Source of the DNA: a virus
Lineage: Duplodnaviria; Heunggongvirae; Uroviricota; Caudoviricetes
DNA: 8,176 nucleotides
IMG/VR virus record: IMGVR_UViG_3300029184_000028
Direction: 5' to 3' (one strand)
Positions 3,268 to 7,708 of this stretch are shown piece by piece (within the stretch, counting starts at the first letter, position 1; each line of letters begins with the position of its first letter). Position numbers and translations under genes: made by a program. The notes under the pieces are model-generated. The model searched no databases. It was not told where the DNA came from and saw only the letters and a list, made by a program, of their open reading frames with translations.

Positions 3268-3488
3268 TGCCGGACAACGTAGATTTTATTCAGGAACAAC
3301 AGGCTGAATTACTGGAGCGCCAGATTAACGCGGCAAGGGTAAAGCATTGCGGTGTTTCTGCGCTGGTTTGCGAAGAGTGTGACGCGCCAATACCTGCTGC
3401 CCGTCGTGCGNNNNNNNNNNNNNNNNNTTGTGTTTCCTGCCAGTCAGTCTTTGAAGCAAAAAACAAACATTACCGGAGAACGGCATGA
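3267..3488 (+). CDS. TraR/DksA-family C4 zinc-finger protein (73 aa; interrupted by a 17-N run)
   Basis: Paired CxxC motifs (CEEC ... CVSC) with spacing typical of the TraR/DksA C4 zinc finger. ATG 3267 preceded by AGGAG at 3256-3260. Reading frame is continuous across the N-run at 3411-3427. Stop TGA at 3486-3488 overlaps the next ATG. Confidence 0.75.
   Translation: MPDNVDFIQEQQAELLERQINAARVKHCGVSALVCEECDAPIPAARRAXXXXXXCVSCQSVFEAKNKHYRRTA
3411..3427. other. Run of 17 ambiguous bases (N): assembly gap or masked bases
   Basis: Directly visible in the sequence; lies inside the zinc-finger gene between its two CxxC pairs. Confidence 1.
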
Positions 3489-3760
3489 GTATTCGTATTG
3501 AAATTGGCGAACGTTATGTCGTTACCAGTGACAGCTTTCAGTTTATTCTCCACGAGAAAAAGAGAGCTGAAAGCGGTAAAAACGCCGGTCAGGAATGGCT
3601 GGCGGTGGTTGGTTATTACCCGAAATTAAGCCAGCTCGTTTCCGGCCTGATGCATCACGATATTCTGACCGGAAGCGCAAAGTCTTTTGCTGATTTAAAC
3701 GCGCAGGTTGAGCAACTCAGCAAGCGTTGTTCAGAGGCTTTTGGCTCATATGGCCGTTAA
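3485..3760 (+). CDS. Hypothetical small early protein (91 aa; P2 orf83 position)
   Basis: ATG 3485 preceded by GGAG at 3473-3476. Stop TAA at 3758-3760 overlaps the likely start of A. No recognisable motif. Confidence 0.6.
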   Translation: MSIRIEIGERYVVTSDSFQFILHEKKRAESGKNAGQEWLAVVGYYPKLSQLVSGLMHHDILTGSAKSFADLNAQVEQLSKRCSEAFGSYGR

Positions 3761-6056
3761 AGCCTCCGGGCGTTTTGTCCCTCCGTCAGTATTTGCCGCA
3801 GGCACCGGTGAGACGTTTACCGGTGCTTATGCATGGAACGCGCCACGCGAGGCCGTCGGGCGCGAAAGACCCCTTACACGTGACGAGATGCGTCAGGTGC
3901 AAGGTGTTTTATCCACGATTAATCGCCTGCCTTACTTTTTGCGCTCGCTGTTTACTTCACGCTATGACTACATCCGGCGCAATAAAAGCCCGGTGCACGG
4001 GTTTTATTTCCTCACATCCACTTTTCAGCGCCGTTTATGGCCGCGTATTGAGCGCGTGAATCAGCGCCATGAAATGAATACCGACGCGTCGTTGCTGTTT
4101 CTGGCAGAGCGTGACCATTATGCGCGTCTGCCGGGGATGAATGACAAGGAGCTGAAAAAGTTTGCCGCCCGTATCTCATCGCAGCTTTTCATGATGTATG
4201 AGGAACTCTGCGATGCATGGGTTGATGCACATGGCGAGAAAGAATCGCTGTTTACAGATGAGGCGCAGGCGCATCTGTATGGTCATGTTGCTGGCGCTGC
4301 ACGTGCTTTCAATATTTCCCCTCTCTACTGGAAAAAATACCGTAAAGGACAGATGACCACGAGGCAGGCATATTCTGCCATTGCCCGTCTGTTTAACGAT
4401 GAGTGGTGGACTCATCAGCTTAAAGGCCAGCGTATGCGCTGGCATGAGGCGTTACTGATTGCTGTCGGGGAGGTCAATAAAGACCGTTCTCCTTATGCCA
4501 GTAAACACGCCATTCGTGATGTGCGTGCGCGCCGCCAGGCAAATCTGGAATTTCTTAAATCGTGTGACCTTGAAAACAGGGAAACCGGCGAGCGCATCGA
4601 CCTTATCAGTAAGGTGATGGGCAGTATTTCTAATCCTGAAATTCGCCGGATGGAGCTGATGAACACCATTGCCGGTATTGAGCGTTACGCCGCCGCAGAG
4701 GGTGATGTGGGGATGTTTATCACGCTGACCGCGCCGTCAAAGTATCACCCGACTCGTCAGGTCAGAAAAGGCGAAAGTAAAACCGTTAAGCTTAATCACG
4801 GCTGGAACGATGAGGCATTTAATCCAAAGGATGCGCAGCGTTATCTCTGCCGCATCTGGAGCCTGATGCGCACGGCATTCAAGGATAATGATTTACAGGT
4901 CTACGGTTTGCGTGTCGTCGAGCCACACCACGACGGAACGCCGCACTGGCATATGATGCTTTTTTGTAATCCACGCCAGCGTAACCAGATTATCGAAATC
5001 ATGCGTCGCTATGCGCTCAAAGAGGATGGCGACGAAAGAGGAGCCGCGCGAAACCGTTTTCAGGCAAAGCACCTTAACCGGGGCGGTGCTGCGGGATATA
5101 TCGCGAAATACATTTCAAAAAATATCGACGGCTATGCACTAGATGGTCAGCTCGATAACGATACCGGTAAGCCGCTTAAAGATACTGCCGCGGCTGTTAC
5201 CGCATGGGCGTCAACGTGGCGCATCCCGCAATTTAAAACGGTTGGACTGCCGACAATGGGGGCTTACCGTGAACTACGCAAATTGCCTCGCGGCGTCAGT
5301 ATTGCTGATGAGTTTGACGAACGCGTCGAGGCTGCTCGCGCTGCCGCAGACAGTGGTGATTTTGCGTTGTATATCAGCGCGCAGGGTGGGGCAAATGTCC
5401 CGCGCGATTGCCAGACTGTCAGGGTCGCCCGTAGCCCGTCGGATGACGTTAACGAGTACGAGGAAGAAGTCGAGAGAGTGGTCGGCATTTACGCGCCGCA
5501 TCTCGGCGCGCGTCATATTCATATCACCAGAACGACGGACTGGCGCATTGTTCCGAAAGTGCCGGTCGTTGAGCCTTTAACTTTAAAAAGCGGCATCGCC
5601 GCGCCTCGGAGTCCTGTCAATAACTGTGGAAAGCTCACCGGTGGTGATACTTCGTTACCGGCTCCCACACCTTCTGAGCACGCCGCAGCAGTGCTTAATC
5701 TGGTTGATGACGGTGTTATCGAATGGAATGACCCGGAGGTCGTGAGGGCGCTCAGGGGCGCATTAAAACACGGCCTGAGAACACCAAACCGTCAGCAAAG
5801 AAACGGAAGCCCGTTAAAACCGAATGAAATAGCGCCATCGGCCAGGCTGACCCGGTCGGAGCGTATGCAAATTACCCGTATCCGTGTTGACCTTGCTCAG
5901 AACGGCATCTGGCCTCAGCGATGGGAACTTGAGGCGCTGGCGCGTGGCGCGACCGTAAATTATGACGGGAAAAAATTCACGTATCCGGTCACTGATGAGT
6001 GGCCGGGATTCTCAACAGTAATGGAGTGGACATCATGGCAAAAATTCACGAGGTAA
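3750..6056 (+). CDS. A: Replication initiation endonuclease A (HUH-superfamily rolling-circle initiator, ~769 aa from ATG 3750; ORF track starts at TTG 3708)
   Basis: HUH-type metal-binding motif EPHHDGTPHWHMMLF and a paired-tyrosine active site AGYIAKYISKNIDG (Y-x3-Y), as in phiX174 gpA / P2 A nickases. Length is close to P2 A (761 aa) and the gene is last in the early operon. Stop TAA at 6054-6056. Confidence 0.92.
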   Translation: MAVKASGRFVPPSVFAAGTGETFTGAYAWNAPREAVGRERPLTRDEMRQVQGVLSTINRLPYFLRSLFTSRYDYIRRNKSPVHGFYFLTSTFQRRLWPRIERVNQRHEMNTDASLLFLAERDHYARLPGMNDKELKKFAARISSQLFMMYEELCDAWVDAHGEKESLFTDEAQAHLYGHVAGAARAFNISPLYWKKYRKGQMTTRQAYSAIARLFNDEWWTHQLKGQRMRWHEALLIAVGEVNKDRSPYASKHAIRDVRARRQANLEFLKSCDLENRETGERIDLISKVMGSISNPEIRRMELMNTIAGIERYAAAEGDVGMFITLTAPSKYHPTRQVRKGESKTVKLNHGWNDEAFNPKDAQRYLCRIWSLMRTAFKDNDLQVYGLRVVEPHHDGTPHWHMMLFCNPRQRNQIIEIMRRYALKEDGDERGAARNRFQAKHLNRGGAAGYIAKYISKNIDGYALDGQLDNDTGKPLKDTAAAVTAWASTWRIPQFKTVGLPTMGAYRELRKLPRGVSIADEFDERVEAARAAADSGDFALYISAQGGANVPRDCQTVRVARSPSDDVNEYEEEVERVVGIYAPHLGARHIHITRTTDWRIVPKVPVVEPLTLKSGIAAPRSPVNNCGKLTGGDTSLPAPTPSEHAAAVLNLVDDGVIEWNDPEVVRALRGALKHGLRTPNRQQRNGSPLKPNEIAPSARLTRSERMQITRIRVDLAQNGIWPQRWELEALARGATVNYDGKKFTYPVTDEWPGFSTVMEWTSWQKFTR
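5601..5620 (+). other. Putative origin of replication / A-protein nick site inside the A coding sequence
   Basis: Sequence GCGCCTCGGAGTCCTGTCAA matches my recollection of the P2 ori nick region, which is known to lie within gene A. Recalled, not checked against a database. Confidence 0.45.
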
Positions 6057-6487
6057 AGCTTCACGCAAAATATTTCGACCTTGTGCTGGAAGGAAAGAAA
6101 CGTGCAGAGTTTCGGAAAAATGACCGTAATTATGAGCGCGGGGACACGCTGATTTTGCATGAATGGGTGCAGGGTGTGTTTACGGGGCGAAAGGTTGAAG
6201 CCCGGATAACAGATGTTACTGACCTGTCAGACTGGCTGGAAGATTATGTCTTGCTAAGTATTGAGCTGCTTAATACAAGCGCATATGAGATTGTGAACTG
6301 GAAAGAACTTAGTGAGCGTGGTCTGGTATTCAGAATTAATCATGAAATTATGCATCAGCTCGGCCTTGCTGTTATGTATGAACCAGAGACGGGGATGTCT
6401 GGCGGGGCAATGGTTGCCACGGATGGAGCATGGAACTATTCAGATGAACAGATTGAGAGTGCAAAGCAAAACGGGTGGCTTGGATAA
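6035..6487 (+). CDS. DUF3850/ASCH-like protein with unassigned C-terminal extension (~150 aa)
   Basis: ATG 6035 preceded by GGAG at 6023-6026 (spacing 8); overlaps the end of A by 22 nt. N-terminal segment KLHAKYFDLVLEGKKRAEFRKNDRNYERGDTLILHEW resembles the DUF3850/ASCH fold signature. Stop TAA at 6485-6487. Confidence 0.6.
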   Translation: MAKIHEVKLHAKYFDLVLEGKKRAEFRKNDRNYERGDTLILHEWVQGVFTGRKVEARITDVTDLSDWLEDYVLLSIELLNTSAYEIVNWKELSERGLVFRINHEIMHQLGLAVMYEPETGMSGGAMVATDGAWNYSDEQIESAKQNGWLG

Positions 6488-6693
6488 TGCACGGAATACC
6501 AGGCGAGATACCGCAACATAACACTAAAAATATCAAGCTGATGGCTATTGTTCACCGTCTACAGCAGATTATGGTCAACGAAAATCTGACGCCTGACGAG
6601 CTGGTCGGGTGTGCTGAAATAGTCCGGGATAATTACGGGCGGTTTAACTATATCGGTCAGTCCAGAGTTGCGCCACCACCACGCAGACGATAG
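6487..6693 (+). CDS. Small hypothetical protein (68 aa), translationally coupled to the upstream gene
   Basis: ATG 6487 overlaps the upstream stop (TAATG). No RBS of its own and no recognisable motif. Alternative in-frame ATG at 6541. Could be a gene remnant. Confidence 0.3.
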   Translation: MHGIPGEIPQHNTKNIKLMAIVHRLQQIMVNENLTPDELVGCAEIVRDNYGRFNYIGQSRVAPPPRRR

Positions 6694-6766
6694 AGAACGC
6701 CGCCAGTCGTGAAACTTGTTTTCAGGGCTGGCGGGGTTGAACAACGAGCGAAGTGAGGCGTTAGCA

Positions 6767-7708
6767 TTAAGTTAATTTTAATGAATGGTACTCTATCGAG
6801 CTGATTGTAGATGCGATATATTTACGATCATTTACAGAGAGTATTGCCGCTAGTAGACGACATACCAGAGCCTGCATTTGTAGCAATATATCGCTACCAT
6901 ATTGACAATCATTGATACTAGAGAAACCAAGCGGTTGCCCATTAAAAATGGCTTCATGAAAATTATCATTGCGTATAACTGAAACATTACATTCATCTGT
7001 TGCCCATGACGGGATTTTTACACCGTAATTTTCGCACATCCAATATACTCTATTTTGATGAGATGGTTTTTTCTCTTTAATGACTTTATCCCTTTCATCC
7101 CATGCTATAGCAAAACAGCAATCAAGAGCCATATAAAGATACTGGAATTTCTCAAAGGAAAGGTATAGTGGGTTATGTGATAGGAATAGGGAGTGTATCA
7201 CCGCAGCTATTCTTTTAATGGAGCGATCATCTTTTTGTTTGTCTTTTATATAGTTAAGTGCTAGCTCTATTACTTCTTTTTCAGAGCATCCAATGAGAAT
7301 AAAGTCAGTTAACTTAGTGGGCTTGATAGTGGTTGCATCAAGAAAACCAGCGTCAGTGGTTGTCAATCTTATACCCTTGAAAAAAGAGAGGCACCACACA
7401 ACAAAGTTGAGAGTTTCTAACGAGGATGTGTTTTTTAATTTTAGTGTGTGCGTTTTGGGCATGCCGAATACTCGGTAACTATAAGGCATTGTGCATGTGT
7501 CACCATTAAGGTTATATACCTTTCGATTCCCAGGGTATATCCAACCATTAACAACGTTTTTATCATTGTTAATACGTTCCACTTTCTCAATAAGACCGGG
7601 TAAAGTACGCAAAGAAAATTGTTCAGTCTCAATGTTAACTTCTACTGGATAGTATCCAAACTCCGAAATAATCTCATTTGGTTGCTGTTCATCAACTTCA
7701 CCTTGCAT
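6767..7708 (-). CDS. Hypothetical 313-aa protein; candidate anti-phage defence / abortive-infection cargo at the P2 variable locus
   Basis: Uninterrupted 942-nt ORF with ATG (7706-7708) preceded by GGAG at spacing 6. Antisense to the early operon and convergent with it. Markedly AT-rich relative to the A gene (by eye, roughly mid-30s % GC against low-to-mid 50s). No TM segment, Walker A or other motif I can assign. Lies in the interval between the replication genes and cos. Confidence 0.8.
   Translation of the reverse strand: MQGEVDEQQPNEIISEFGYYPVEVNIETEQFSLRTLPGLIEKVERINNDKNVVNGWIYPGNRKVYNLNGDTCTMPYSYRVFGMPKTHTLKLKNTSSLETLNFVVWCLSFFKGIRLTTTDAGFLDATTIKPTKLTDFILIGCSEKEVIELALNYIKDKQKDDRSIKRIAAVIHSLFLSHNPLYLSFEKFQYLYMALDCCFAIAWDERDKVIKEKKPSHQNRVYWMCENYGVKIPSWATDECNVSVIRNDNFHEAIFNGQPLGFSSINDCQYGSDILLQMQALVCRLLAAILSVNDRKYIASTISSIEYHSLKLT

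What the first reader, a model, noticed from the sequence alone, without database searches (positions are those of the whole stretch)
6035..6693. DUF3850-like gene with C-terminal extension and a coupled small ORF between A and the cargo gene
The DUF3850/ASCH-like domain occupies only the N-terminal ~75 residues; the remaining ~75 residues and the TAATG-coupled 68-aa ORF are unassigned. They sit at the edge of the variable locus and converge on the cargo gene, so they could be backbone, remnants of an earlier cargo, or accessory partners such as an antitoxin or regulator.
Basis: inference. Interest (0 to 1): 0.4.

Follow-up and report, generated by a model that had tools for sequence, protein, structure and literature searches.

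The report
Conserved flank genes beside P2 defence hotspot
The two small genes are real, conserved genes at the end of the phage's replication operon and form the constant left border of a known cargo hotspot, not partners of the cargo gene; the smaller one has distant relatives fused to a ClpX zinc-finger domain, which suggests a testable function.

Summary
Window 6035-6487 encodes a 150-aa protein and 6487-6693 a TAATG-coupled 68-aa protein. Both converge on the minus-strand cargo gene at 6767-7708.

The "unassigned" C-terminal half is Pfam DUF7415. This small domain also occurs in T4-like and T5-like phages. The N-terminal half is a minimal ASCH/PUA-like domain (DUF3850; PDB 3IUW).

The 68-aa ORF is a genuine gene. 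dN/dS is about 0.05-0.1, and its start and core are conserved across P2-like lineages. It belongs to PHROG 11386 and has no Pfam family.

The segment does not co-vary with cargo:
- In 80 related loci the small ORF lies next to at least 32 unrelated cargo types, and in 3 loci next to no cargo.
- Homology to relatives carrying other cargo runs through both genes, then a covarying RNA hairpin (6696-6738) and a conserved motif ending GGCGTTAG at 6763. It breaks there.

The segment is not universal backbone either. Only about a fifth to a third of E. coli P2-like prophages carry it, and the slot between gene A and the small ORF is itself swappable (DinI-like, DUF2158+ORF226 and others).

One lead is new: distant homologues in the same slot carry a C-terminal ClpX zinc-binding domain.

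Overall this is ordinary and already annotated, with function unknown.

The parts
3708..6056 (+). Replication gene A (context). Here its stop is displaced, so A overlaps the next gene by 22 nt.
   Evidence: In P2 and most relatives A ends in an ATGA overlap with orf91. In the window the sequence reads ACATCATGG, so the usual TGA is TCA.
6035..6487 (+). orf91-long: a 150-aa two-domain protein (PHROG 1812).
   Evidence: It is 99.7% identical at DNA level to Yersinia phage vB_YpM_46 gp39.
6044..6262 (+). DUF3850 / minimal ASCH (PUA-like) domain, aa 4-76.
   Evidence: Pfam E 1e-17. PDB 3IUW matches by sequence at E 8e-14 and by fold at TM 0.88, rmsd 1.4 A. AF2 pLDDT is about 80.
6290..6418 (+). 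DUF7415 domain, aa 86-128.
   Evidence: Pfam E 1.9e-14. tblastn finds it in 894 phage records, including T4-like and T5-like phages. The AF2 model has low confidence here.
6487..6693 (+). Small ORF of 68 aa (PHROG 11386; homologue of Salmonella phage PSP3 gp37). It is translationally coupled to orf91-long by TAATG.
   Evidence: AF2 predicts three helices, mean pLDDT 80. No PDB or BFVD fold match.
6696..6738 (+). Conserved stem-loop starting 3 nt after the small ORF's stop codon.
   Evidence: -30.7 kcal/mol, z -4.3 on the + strand, against -19.1 kcal/mol, z -1.9 on the - strand. 8 of 17 pairs show compensatory changes and 97.4% of cells are paired, against 26-55% in the slid controls. No U tract follows.
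6739..6763 (+). Conserved boundary motif GTTGAACAACGAGC...GAGGCGTTAG. Similarity among relatives with different cargo ends right after it.
   Evidence: Alignment A4. BLAST breakpoints lie at about 6764 in 7 phages with other cargo.
6767..7708 (-). Cargo gene (ORF313 of P2-EC67; PHROG 5937). Given for context only; it is not part of the conserved segment.
   Evidence: GC is 36.6%, against 46-49% for the two flank genes. No Pfam or PADLOC hit.

Best explanation
Window 6035-6763 is the constant distal end of the rightward early (replication) operon of one large sub-lineage of P2-like phages. It forms the left border of the known gpA-gpQ cargo hotspot and is not part of the cargo.

Shown:
- Two real genes lie head to tail after gene A, with overlapping stop and start codons.
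- orf91-long is a minimal ASCH/PUA-like domain fused to DUF7415.
- The 68-aa protein is helical, narrowly distributed and strongly conserved.
- A stem-loop maintained by compensatory changes follows, then a conserved ~25-nt motif. Sequences of phages with different cargo diverge after that motif.

Inferred:
- Both genes are transcribed from the early promoter together with cox, B and A, and are translated by coupling.
- The stem-loop acts on the plus-strand RNA as the 3' end or stabiliser of that transcript and separates it from the convergent cargo transcript.
- The shared flank sequence gives the homology through which cargo modules are exchanged by recombination.
- The proteins are dispensable early accessory factors acting on host or nucleic-acid targets. 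orf91-long would act through a PUA-like nucleic-acid-binding domain. The small protein may act through ClpX.
For: Reality of the genes:
- Pfam and PHROG matches.
- dN/dS of 0.05-0.10 and an excess of third-position changes for the small ORF.
- The MH... start is conserved behind five different upstream genes, each with its own Shine-Dalgarno sequence.

Independence from cargo:
- Homology with Wphi, P24A7b, vB_YpM_50, P22H4, P37, 12474III and another P2 isolate runs from A to 6740-6768 (about 6764 in five of the seven) and resumes only at about 7910 near cos.
- Their cargo differs: a Dcm methylase set, Orf97, other hypothetical proteins.
- Among 80 IMG/VR loci there are 32 cargo clusters plus 3 loci with almost no cargo. 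orf91-long with the small ORF accompanies about 23 of the clusters.
- ORF313 cargo itself occurs behind three different upstream contexts.
- GC drops from 46-49% in the two genes to 37% in the cargo.
- In P2 the cargo (old-tin) has its own leftward transcript starts near cos.

Hairpin:
-.
- G-U pairs exist only in the plus-strand reading (UG in 37 of 45 sequences at one pair).
Against: No expression data were available, so co-transcription with A, translation of the small ORF and the role of the hairpin are all inferred.

The hairpin has no U tract, so it is not a canonical intrinsic terminator.

The segment is present in only a minority of E. coli P2-like prophages. Internal recombination breakpoints exist at 6012, 6255, 6505 and 6528, so it behaves as a semi-variable module rather than strict core.

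ORF313-type cargo is always found next to some allele of the small ORF, including in a divergent lineage: 78% (cargo) and 80% (small ORF) amino-acid identity. This is expected from linkage but does not by itself exclude a functional tie.

No biochemical function is established for DUF3850, DUF7415 or the small protein.
Confidence: 0.8

Rival explanations
1. The small protein, with or without orf91-long, is a dedicated partner of the convergent cargo gene ORF313, such as an antitoxin, immunity factor or regulator.
For: Every ORF313 locus examined has at least the 3' two-thirds of the small ORF directly beside it. This holds even when orf91-long is replaced by DUF2158+ORF226. It also holds in a divergent lineage where both have drifted, to 78% (ORF313) and 78-80% (small ORF) identity.
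Against: The same small ORF sits beside at least 31 other cargo clusters and beside no cargo in L029, L081 and L082. In the DUF2158+ORF226 arrangement its 5' end is broken by an 8-nt insertion with an in-frame stop, yet ORF313 is retained at 99%. The orientation is convergent, not operonic. Adjacency is expected for whatever gene is last before the hotspot.
Confidence: 0.05
2. The segment is a decaying remnant of an earlier cargo module and has no current function.
For: Some copies are damaged. Wphi carries frameshifts. One E. coli strain has an IS2 insertion. Retron-RT loci hold a decayed copy. The DUF2158+ORF226 arrangement has a disrupted 5' end.
Against: Both genes are intact in 345 complete E. 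coli genomes. The small ORF is under strong purifying selection. The orf91-long/small-ORF pair is kept down to 54% and about 70% protein identity in Salmonella, Enterobacter and E. coli S42 prophages. GC content is close to the backbone, not to the cargo.
Confidence: 0.03
3. orf91-long and/or the small protein are counter-defence (anti-immunity) or host-takeover factors. They would be early lytic proteins that neutralise a host system, placed next to the defence hotspot only by genome architecture.
For: The position at the end of the early operon fits. The slot between A and the small ORF holds alternative host-modulating genes, such as a DinI-like protein. DUF7415 is widespread as a small protein in virulent T4-like and T5-like phages. 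PUA-like/ASCH domains bind nucleic acids. Relatives of the small protein carry a host-like ClpX zinc-binding domain.
Against: No match to any characterised anti-defence protein. PADLOC finds nothing. No experimental data. The patchy distribution fits many other accessory roles equally well.
Confidence: 0.3

Closest known systems
Phage P2 Orf91 (NP_046796) and the orf91 genes of Wphi and L-413C
   Same: Same position directly after gene A. The first 221 nt are 97% identical and encode the same DUF3850 domain.
   Different: P2 Orf91 diverges exactly at the domain boundary (window 6255). It lacks DUF7415, the small ORF and the hairpin. L-413C keeps DUF7415 but loses the small ORF from 6528.
PDB 3IUW, an 83-aa 'activating signal cointegrator' (ASCH) protein of Enterococcus faecalis
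   Same: Same minimal PUA-like fold as residues 4-79: 39% identity, TM 0.88, rmsd 1.4 A.
   Different: 3IUW is a stand-alone domain of unknown function from structural genomics, with no DUF7415 extension. Similarity to the characterised ASCH enzymes YqfB and ZmASCH is only marginal (E 0.28; Foldseek E > 0.2).
Salmonella phage PSP3 gp37 and PHROG 11386
   Same: Homologues of the 68-aa ORF with 78% identity over aa 1-58, in the same place at the end of the early operon.
   Different: They are preceded by other small genes instead of orf91-long. The C-terminal linker is longer. All are annotated only as hypothetical.
gpA-gpQ variable locus (TO region, defence hotspot) of P2-like phages (Odegrip 2006, cited in PMC9122126; Rousset 2022, PMC9122126)
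   Same: The window is one instance of this locus. The cargo is ORF313 of P2-EC67. Rousset's locus tables list 'DUF3850/ASCH + hypothetical + ...' arrangements.
   Different: Those studies take everything between gpA and gpQ as the locus. Here the real junction is mapped to about 6764. That places orf91-long, the small ORF and the hairpin on the constant side.
N-terminal zinc-binding domain of ClpX (Pfam PF06689; PDB 2DS5, 1OVX)
   Same: Six distant homologues of the small protein carry this domain at their C terminus. It is highly similar to the E. coli ClpX domain across the ~36-residue core. Three of the four whose genomic context was examined sit between gene A and the portal gene of P2-like prophages.
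   Different: The protein in the window has no zinc-binding domain. A Pro-rich basic tail (APPPRRR) occupies that position.

Membership tests
Pfam DUF3850 (PF12961) / ASCH (PF04266), PUA-like superfamily | Profile match above the curated cut-off over the whole model | tested here: met
   DUF3850 64.5 bits (cut-off 22.9), model positions 1-77 of 77. ASCH 41.8 bits (cut-off 21.2).
Pfam DUF3850 (PF12961) / ASCH (PF04266), PUA-like superfamily | Small beta-barrel PUA-like fold | tested here: met
   The AF2 N-domain (pLDDT about 80) superposes on 3IUW with TM 0.88 and rmsd 1.4 A.
Characterised ASCH enzymes (YqfB N4-acetylcytidine amidohydrolase, ZmASCH ribonuclease) | Conserved catalytic residues and significant similarity to the enzymes | tested here: inconclusive
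   Only marginal sequence hits (1TE7 and 9KYF at E about 0.3) and weak fold hits. Catalytic residues were not examined.
Pfam DUF7415 (PF24187) | Profile match above the curated cut-off | tested here: met
   54.0 bits (cut-off 27), aa 86-128.
PHROG 11386 (small ORF family) | Full-length profile match | tested here: met
   E 7.4e-40, positions 1-69 of 69.
Core (backbone) gene set of P2-like phages | Present regardless of which cargo is carried | tested here: met
   At least 22 cargo clusters, and one locus without cargo, behind orf91-long plus the small ORF.
Core (backbone) gene set of P2-like phages | Present in essentially all members | tested here: not met
   The A 3' end is in 1682 E. coli genomes. 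DUF3850 is in 372, DUF7415 in 351, and the small ORF in 364 (megablast) or 456-564 (blastn). The segment beyond DUF3850 is absent from P2 itself.
Hotspot cargo (gpA-gpQ variable locus) | Replaced between otherwise near-identical phages, with a compositional break | tested here: not met
   Junctions lie at about 6764 and about 7910. GC is 46-49% for the segment and 37% for the cargo.
Antitoxin or immunity partner of the adjacent cargo (toxin-antitoxin-like pair) | Strict co-occurrence with one partner gene, and a co-oriented operon | tested here: not met
   32 different neighbours plus 3 loci with none. The orientation is convergent.
Intrinsic (Rho-independent) terminator | GC-rich hairpin immediately followed by a U tract | tested here: not met
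   A hairpin is present and covaries, but no T run follows on either strand and the terminator scan is negative.
ClpX-type zinc-binding domain proteins (PF06689) | C4 zinc-finger motif CxxC...CxxC | tested here: not met
   The window protein has no such match. Only distant homologues do: P0181, P0182, P0184, P0186, P0189 and P0190.

The most novel reading that the evidence does not exclude
The 68-aa protein belongs to an undescribed family of phage modulators of the host ClpX unfoldase. Its conserved helical core (LKLxxIxxRLQxxMxNENxTPxELVxCAxxVR) is joined in some P2-like phages to a near-copy of the ClpX N-terminal zinc-binding domain. In others, including this window, it is joined to a Pro-rich basic tail. 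The family would act as a decoy, adaptor or inhibitor that alters ClpXP handling of phage or host proteins during lytic growth. Separately, the covarying hairpin plus the GGCGTTAG motif may be a dedicated junction element for cargo exchange.
Probability: 0.2. Interest if true: 0.6.

Novelty: already known. Interest (0 to 1): 0.3.

Why it matters
For the scan, this settles where the cargo of this window starts, at about 6765. The two small genes should not be scored as part of a defence system or as its antitoxin.

More generally, surveys that treat everything between gpA and gpQ as 'the hotspot' include a constant block: orf91-long, the small ORF and the hairpin. That block inflates the number of apparent gene arrangements.

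The one point with wider interest is that the small, unnamed protein family has relatives fused to a ClpX zinc-binding domain in the same genomic slot. This gives an inexpensive, testable hypothesis for a gene that is present in hundreds of E. coli and Salmonella prophages and currently labelled 'hypothetical', or wrongly 'meiotically up-regulated 80 protein'.

Tried and rejected
Searches that found nothing useful:
- PADLOC and NCBIfam gave no meaningful hit for either protein or for the cargo.
- Literature: DUF7415 has no papers. The DUF3850 papers give only the PUA-like/ParB-fusion context. The orf91 search gave nothing useful. zf-C4_ClpX and phage-encoded ClpX ZBD gave nothing. The Odegrip 2006 paper is not held.
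- Rfam gave only a chance snoRNA hit over the hairpin region.

Structure work:
- AF2 modelled the DUF3850 half of orf91-long adequately, but the DUF7415 half has pLDDT below 50. No fold inference is possible for it.
- The small-protein model (pLDDT 80) has no significant match in PDB or BFVD. The afdb50 library was unavailable.
- A PDB sequence search with the small-protein profile gave only noise.

Other checks:
- The word-indexed homologue search with the DUF7415 half returned mostly truncated or deletion-fused prophage fragments, such as cox-orf91 fusions. These were discarded as uninformative.
- The antisense ORF at 6559-6744 was considered as the cause of conservation and rejected. The variable positions are third positions of the plus-strand frame, which correspond to first positions of the minus-strand frame.
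- The idea that orf91-long and the small ORF form an obligate pair was rejected, because each occurs without the other.
Full report
**What the window is.** The window is the early-right arm of a P2-like (Peduovirus) prophage. It carries the integrase, C repressor, cox, B, orf80-83 and replication gene A (3708-6056). The finding follows, then a minus-strand 313-aa gene, then the start of the cos/portal region. It is 99.4-99.8% identical to Yersinia phage vB_YpM_46 and to E. coli strain Yu5 across this region.

**Checking the observation.**
- ORF1 is 6035-6487 (150 aa) and ORF2 is 6487-6693 (68 aa). They share the sequence TAATG, in which the stop of ORF1 overlaps the start of ORF2.
- Pfam also places DUF7415 at residues 86-128 (54 bits, cut-off 27). 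The C-terminal half is therefore a named, though uncharacterised, domain.
- The full architecture is PHROG 1812. The small ORF is PHROG 11386. The cargo is PHROG 5937.
- The cargo equals ORF313 of the P2-EC67 variable locus.

**Is the small ORF a real gene?** Yes.
- A scan of IMG/VR recovered 80 loci that encode it.
- Its MH(R/G)(I/L)PGEIP start and a nearly invariant core (IKLMAIVHRLQQIMVNENLTPxELVGCAEIVRDNY) are kept in lineages whose A proteins are only 41-80% identical. They are kept behind different upstream genes, each with its own ribosome-binding site.
- Differences between alleles fall 1210/753/3276 on codon positions 1/2/3. dN/dS against divergent lineages is 0.05-0.10.
- The variable positions are third positions of the plus frame, so the antisense ORF at 6559-6744 does not explain the conservation.
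- A word-indexed search found 195 protein clusters in Escherichia, Salmonella, Citrobacter, Enterobacter, Klebsiella and Buttiauxella, none with a Pfam domain.
- A full HMM search of 1.84 billion representatives found only 32 hits, so the family is narrow.
- AlphaFold predicts three helices (10-31, 36-48, 50-59) with mean pLDDT 80. No significant structural neighbour exists in PDB or BFVD.

**orf91-long.**
- The N-terminal domain matches the 83-residue ASCH protein 3IUW by sequence (E 8e-14) and by fold (TM 0.88, rmsd 1.4 A).
- YTH and TRIP4-ASCH structures appear as weaker neighbours, consistent with a PUA-like nucleic-acid-binding module.
- The DUF7415 half could not be modelled (pLDDT below 50).
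- tblastn finds DUF7415 in 894 phage records: P2-like phages, T4-like Klebsiella, Cronobacter and Aeromonas phages, and T5-like Salmonella and Escherichia phages. In most it is a small stand-alone ORF.
- It is therefore a widespread phage domain and not specific to this locus.

**Synteny: constant, or co-varying with cargo?**
- The 659-nt segment occurs full-length in 23 phage records and 345 of 5426 complete E. coli genomes. The cargo occurs at 95% identity or more in only about 25 genomes.
- Seven phages share uninterrupted homology with the window from inside A to 6740-6768 (6764 in five of them), and again only from about 7910. They are Wphi, P24A7b, vB_YpM_50, P22H4, P37, 12474III and another P2 isolate.
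- Between those points they carry unrelated genes: Dcm-type methylase cassettes, Orf97 and various hypothetical proteins.
- Among the 80 loci holding the small ORF and a portal gene, the sequence between them falls into 32 clusters. Three further loci have almost nothing there.
- The orf91-long/small-ORF pair precedes about 23 of these clusters and one empty locus.
- Conversely, ORF313 cargo is found behind three different upstream contexts.
- GC content is 53% in A, 46-49% in the two genes and 37% in the cargo.

**But it is not universal backbone.**
- The 3' end of A is found in 1682 E. coli genomes. The DUF3850 part is in 372, DUF7415 in 351 and the small ORF in 364 by megablast. The small ORF or hairpin is in 456-564 by the more sensitive search.
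- P2 itself shares only nucleotides 6035-6255. That endpoint is the DUF3850/DUF7415 domain boundary. P2 then has an unrelated tail followed by tin and old.
- L-413C loses homology at 6528.
- A common alternative replaces 6012-6505 with a DUF2158 gene plus ORF226. It leaves a small ORF whose 5' end is broken by an 8-nt insertion.
- In other lineages the small ORF is preceded by a DinI-like gene, a 101-aa protein, an acidic 58-71-aa protein, or DUF7415 with a different N-terminal domain.
- The slot between A and the small ORF is thus a minor variable site of its own. The small ORF is the more persistent element.
- Each gene occurs without the other, so they are not an obligate pair.

**The border element.**
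- Three nucleotides after the small ORF's stop lies a stem-loop at 6696-6738. It folds at -30.7 kcal/mol (z -4.3) as plus-strand RNA, but only -19.1 kcal/mol (z -1.9) on the other strand.
- In 45 distinct sequences, 97.4% of cells are paired, against 26-55% when partners are slid. 8 of 17 pairs show compensatory double changes, and no shuffle reaches the observed values.
- Several pairs are G-U only in the plus-strand reading.
- No U tract follows and the terminator scan is negative. It is not a textbook intrinsic terminator.
- It is followed by GTTGAACAACGAGC...GAGGCGTTAG. Alignments of phages with different cargo become unrelated after this motif.
- The element persists where the small ORF has decayed (retron-RT locus). 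It is absent from P2.
- I infer that it marks or stabilises the 3' end of the early transcript and provides shared homology for cargo swapping. Neither role is demonstrated.

**A functional lead for the small protein.**
- Six of the 32 distant homologues (101-122 aa, E 3e-11 to 2e-5) keep the helical core and carry a C-terminal Pfam zf-C4_ClpX domain (E 1e-11 to 6e-19).
- In P0186 this domain is highly similar to the E. coli ClpX zinc-binding domain across its ~36-residue core (2DS5, E 7e-16).
- The genomic context of four of the six was looked up. Three are encoded between Phage_GPA and Phage_portal in distant P2-like prophages, which is the same slot. The fourth lies elsewhere.
- In the window protein a Pro-rich basic tail (APPPRRR) takes the place of that domain.
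- From established knowledge, the ClpX N-domain dimerises and binds adaptors such as SspB and certain substrates. The fusion therefore suggests the family works on or through ClpX.
- It may equally mean only that the core needs a dimerising partner. This is inference from domain fusion alone.

**Comparison with what is known, and verdict.**
- The locus is the gpA-gpQ variable region described by Odegrip et al. (2006) and Rousset et al. (2022). Rousset's tables already list 'DUF3850/ASCH + hypothetical + ...' arrangements.
- Both genes are annotated in RefSeq and are members of existing Pfam or PHROG families.
- The finding is real but ordinary: conserved flank genes of unknown function, not cargo partners and not remnants.
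- Three points go beyond existing annotation: the exact junction at about 6764, the covarying hairpin with its boundary motif, and the ClpX-domain fusions.

Noticed in passing
window 6696-6763; alignment A4 of 45 loci: A stem-loop with compensatory changes in 8 of 17 pairs starts three nucleotides after the small ORF's stop codon. A conserved motif ending GGCGTTAG follows it. The cargo junction lies exactly after this motif in phages with many different cargoes. There is no U tract, and the fold is more stable on the plus strand.
   Followed up: yes
L095 6001-6369, L096 6001-6345, L098 6001-6327 (proteins P0186, P0184, P0182): Distant homologues of the 68-aa protein carry a C-terminal ClpX-type zinc-binding domain that closely resembles the E. 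coli ClpX domain. They sit between gene A and the portal gene of distant P2-like prophages.
   Followed up: partly
window 6030-6056: The usual ATGA overlap between gene A and orf91 is altered (TGA to TCA). A therefore gains seven codons and overlaps orf91 by 22 nt. vB_YpM_46 and vB_EcoM-12474III show the same change.
   Followed up: partly
window 6255 versus P2 (L004 4221): Homology with phage P2 ends exactly at the DUF3850/DUF7415 domain boundary. P2 Orf91 continues with an unrelated 35-residue tail. This looks like recombination at a domain linker.
   Followed up: partly
L002 3960-4040; L010 4033-4188: In the DUF2158+ORF226 arrangement, the small ORF's 5' end has an 8-nt insertion that creates an early stop. 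RefSeq annotates the remaining 50-51 aa as 'meiotically up-regulated 80 protein', which looks like a misnomer.
   Followed up: partly
L005 (phage Wphi) 3998-4666: Wphi orf91 and 'gp92' appear frameshifted relative to all other phages. Wphi gp92 (P0019) is the C-terminal part of DUF7415 run into the start of the small ORF. The name gp92 therefore does not correspond to the 68-aa gene.
   Followed up: partly
L009 3006-4234 (E. coli 2013C-4830): An IS2 element is inserted in the 3' end of the small ORF, between it and ORF313.
   Followed up: no
L040 and L071, about 4571-4801: In a divergent P2-like lineage, the gene immediately upstream of the small ORF is a DinI-like protein (Pfam E 1.7e-17).
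   Followed up: partly
L099 2380-2690 (E. coli ZF34): A locus with a reverse-transcriptase cargo keeps a decayed, unannotated copy of the small ORF (the conserved Cys is lost) together with an intact hairpin and boundary motif.
   Followed up: partly
window 6767-7708 (-): The cargo gene ORF313 has no Pfam, NCBIfam or PADLOC match, and its GC content is 36.6%. Alleles of 99%, about 85% and about 78% identity exist in E. coli, always convergent with the small ORF.
   Followed up: partly
window 3411-3427: A run of 17 N (masked or unresolved bases) lies inside the DksA/TraR-like zinc-finger gene (orf82 homologue).
   Followed up: no
phage collection: DUF7415 occurs in 894 phage records, including T4-like and T5-like virulent phages. 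T5-like genomes often carry two copies. It usually forms a small stand-alone ORF of unknown function.
   Followed up: partly
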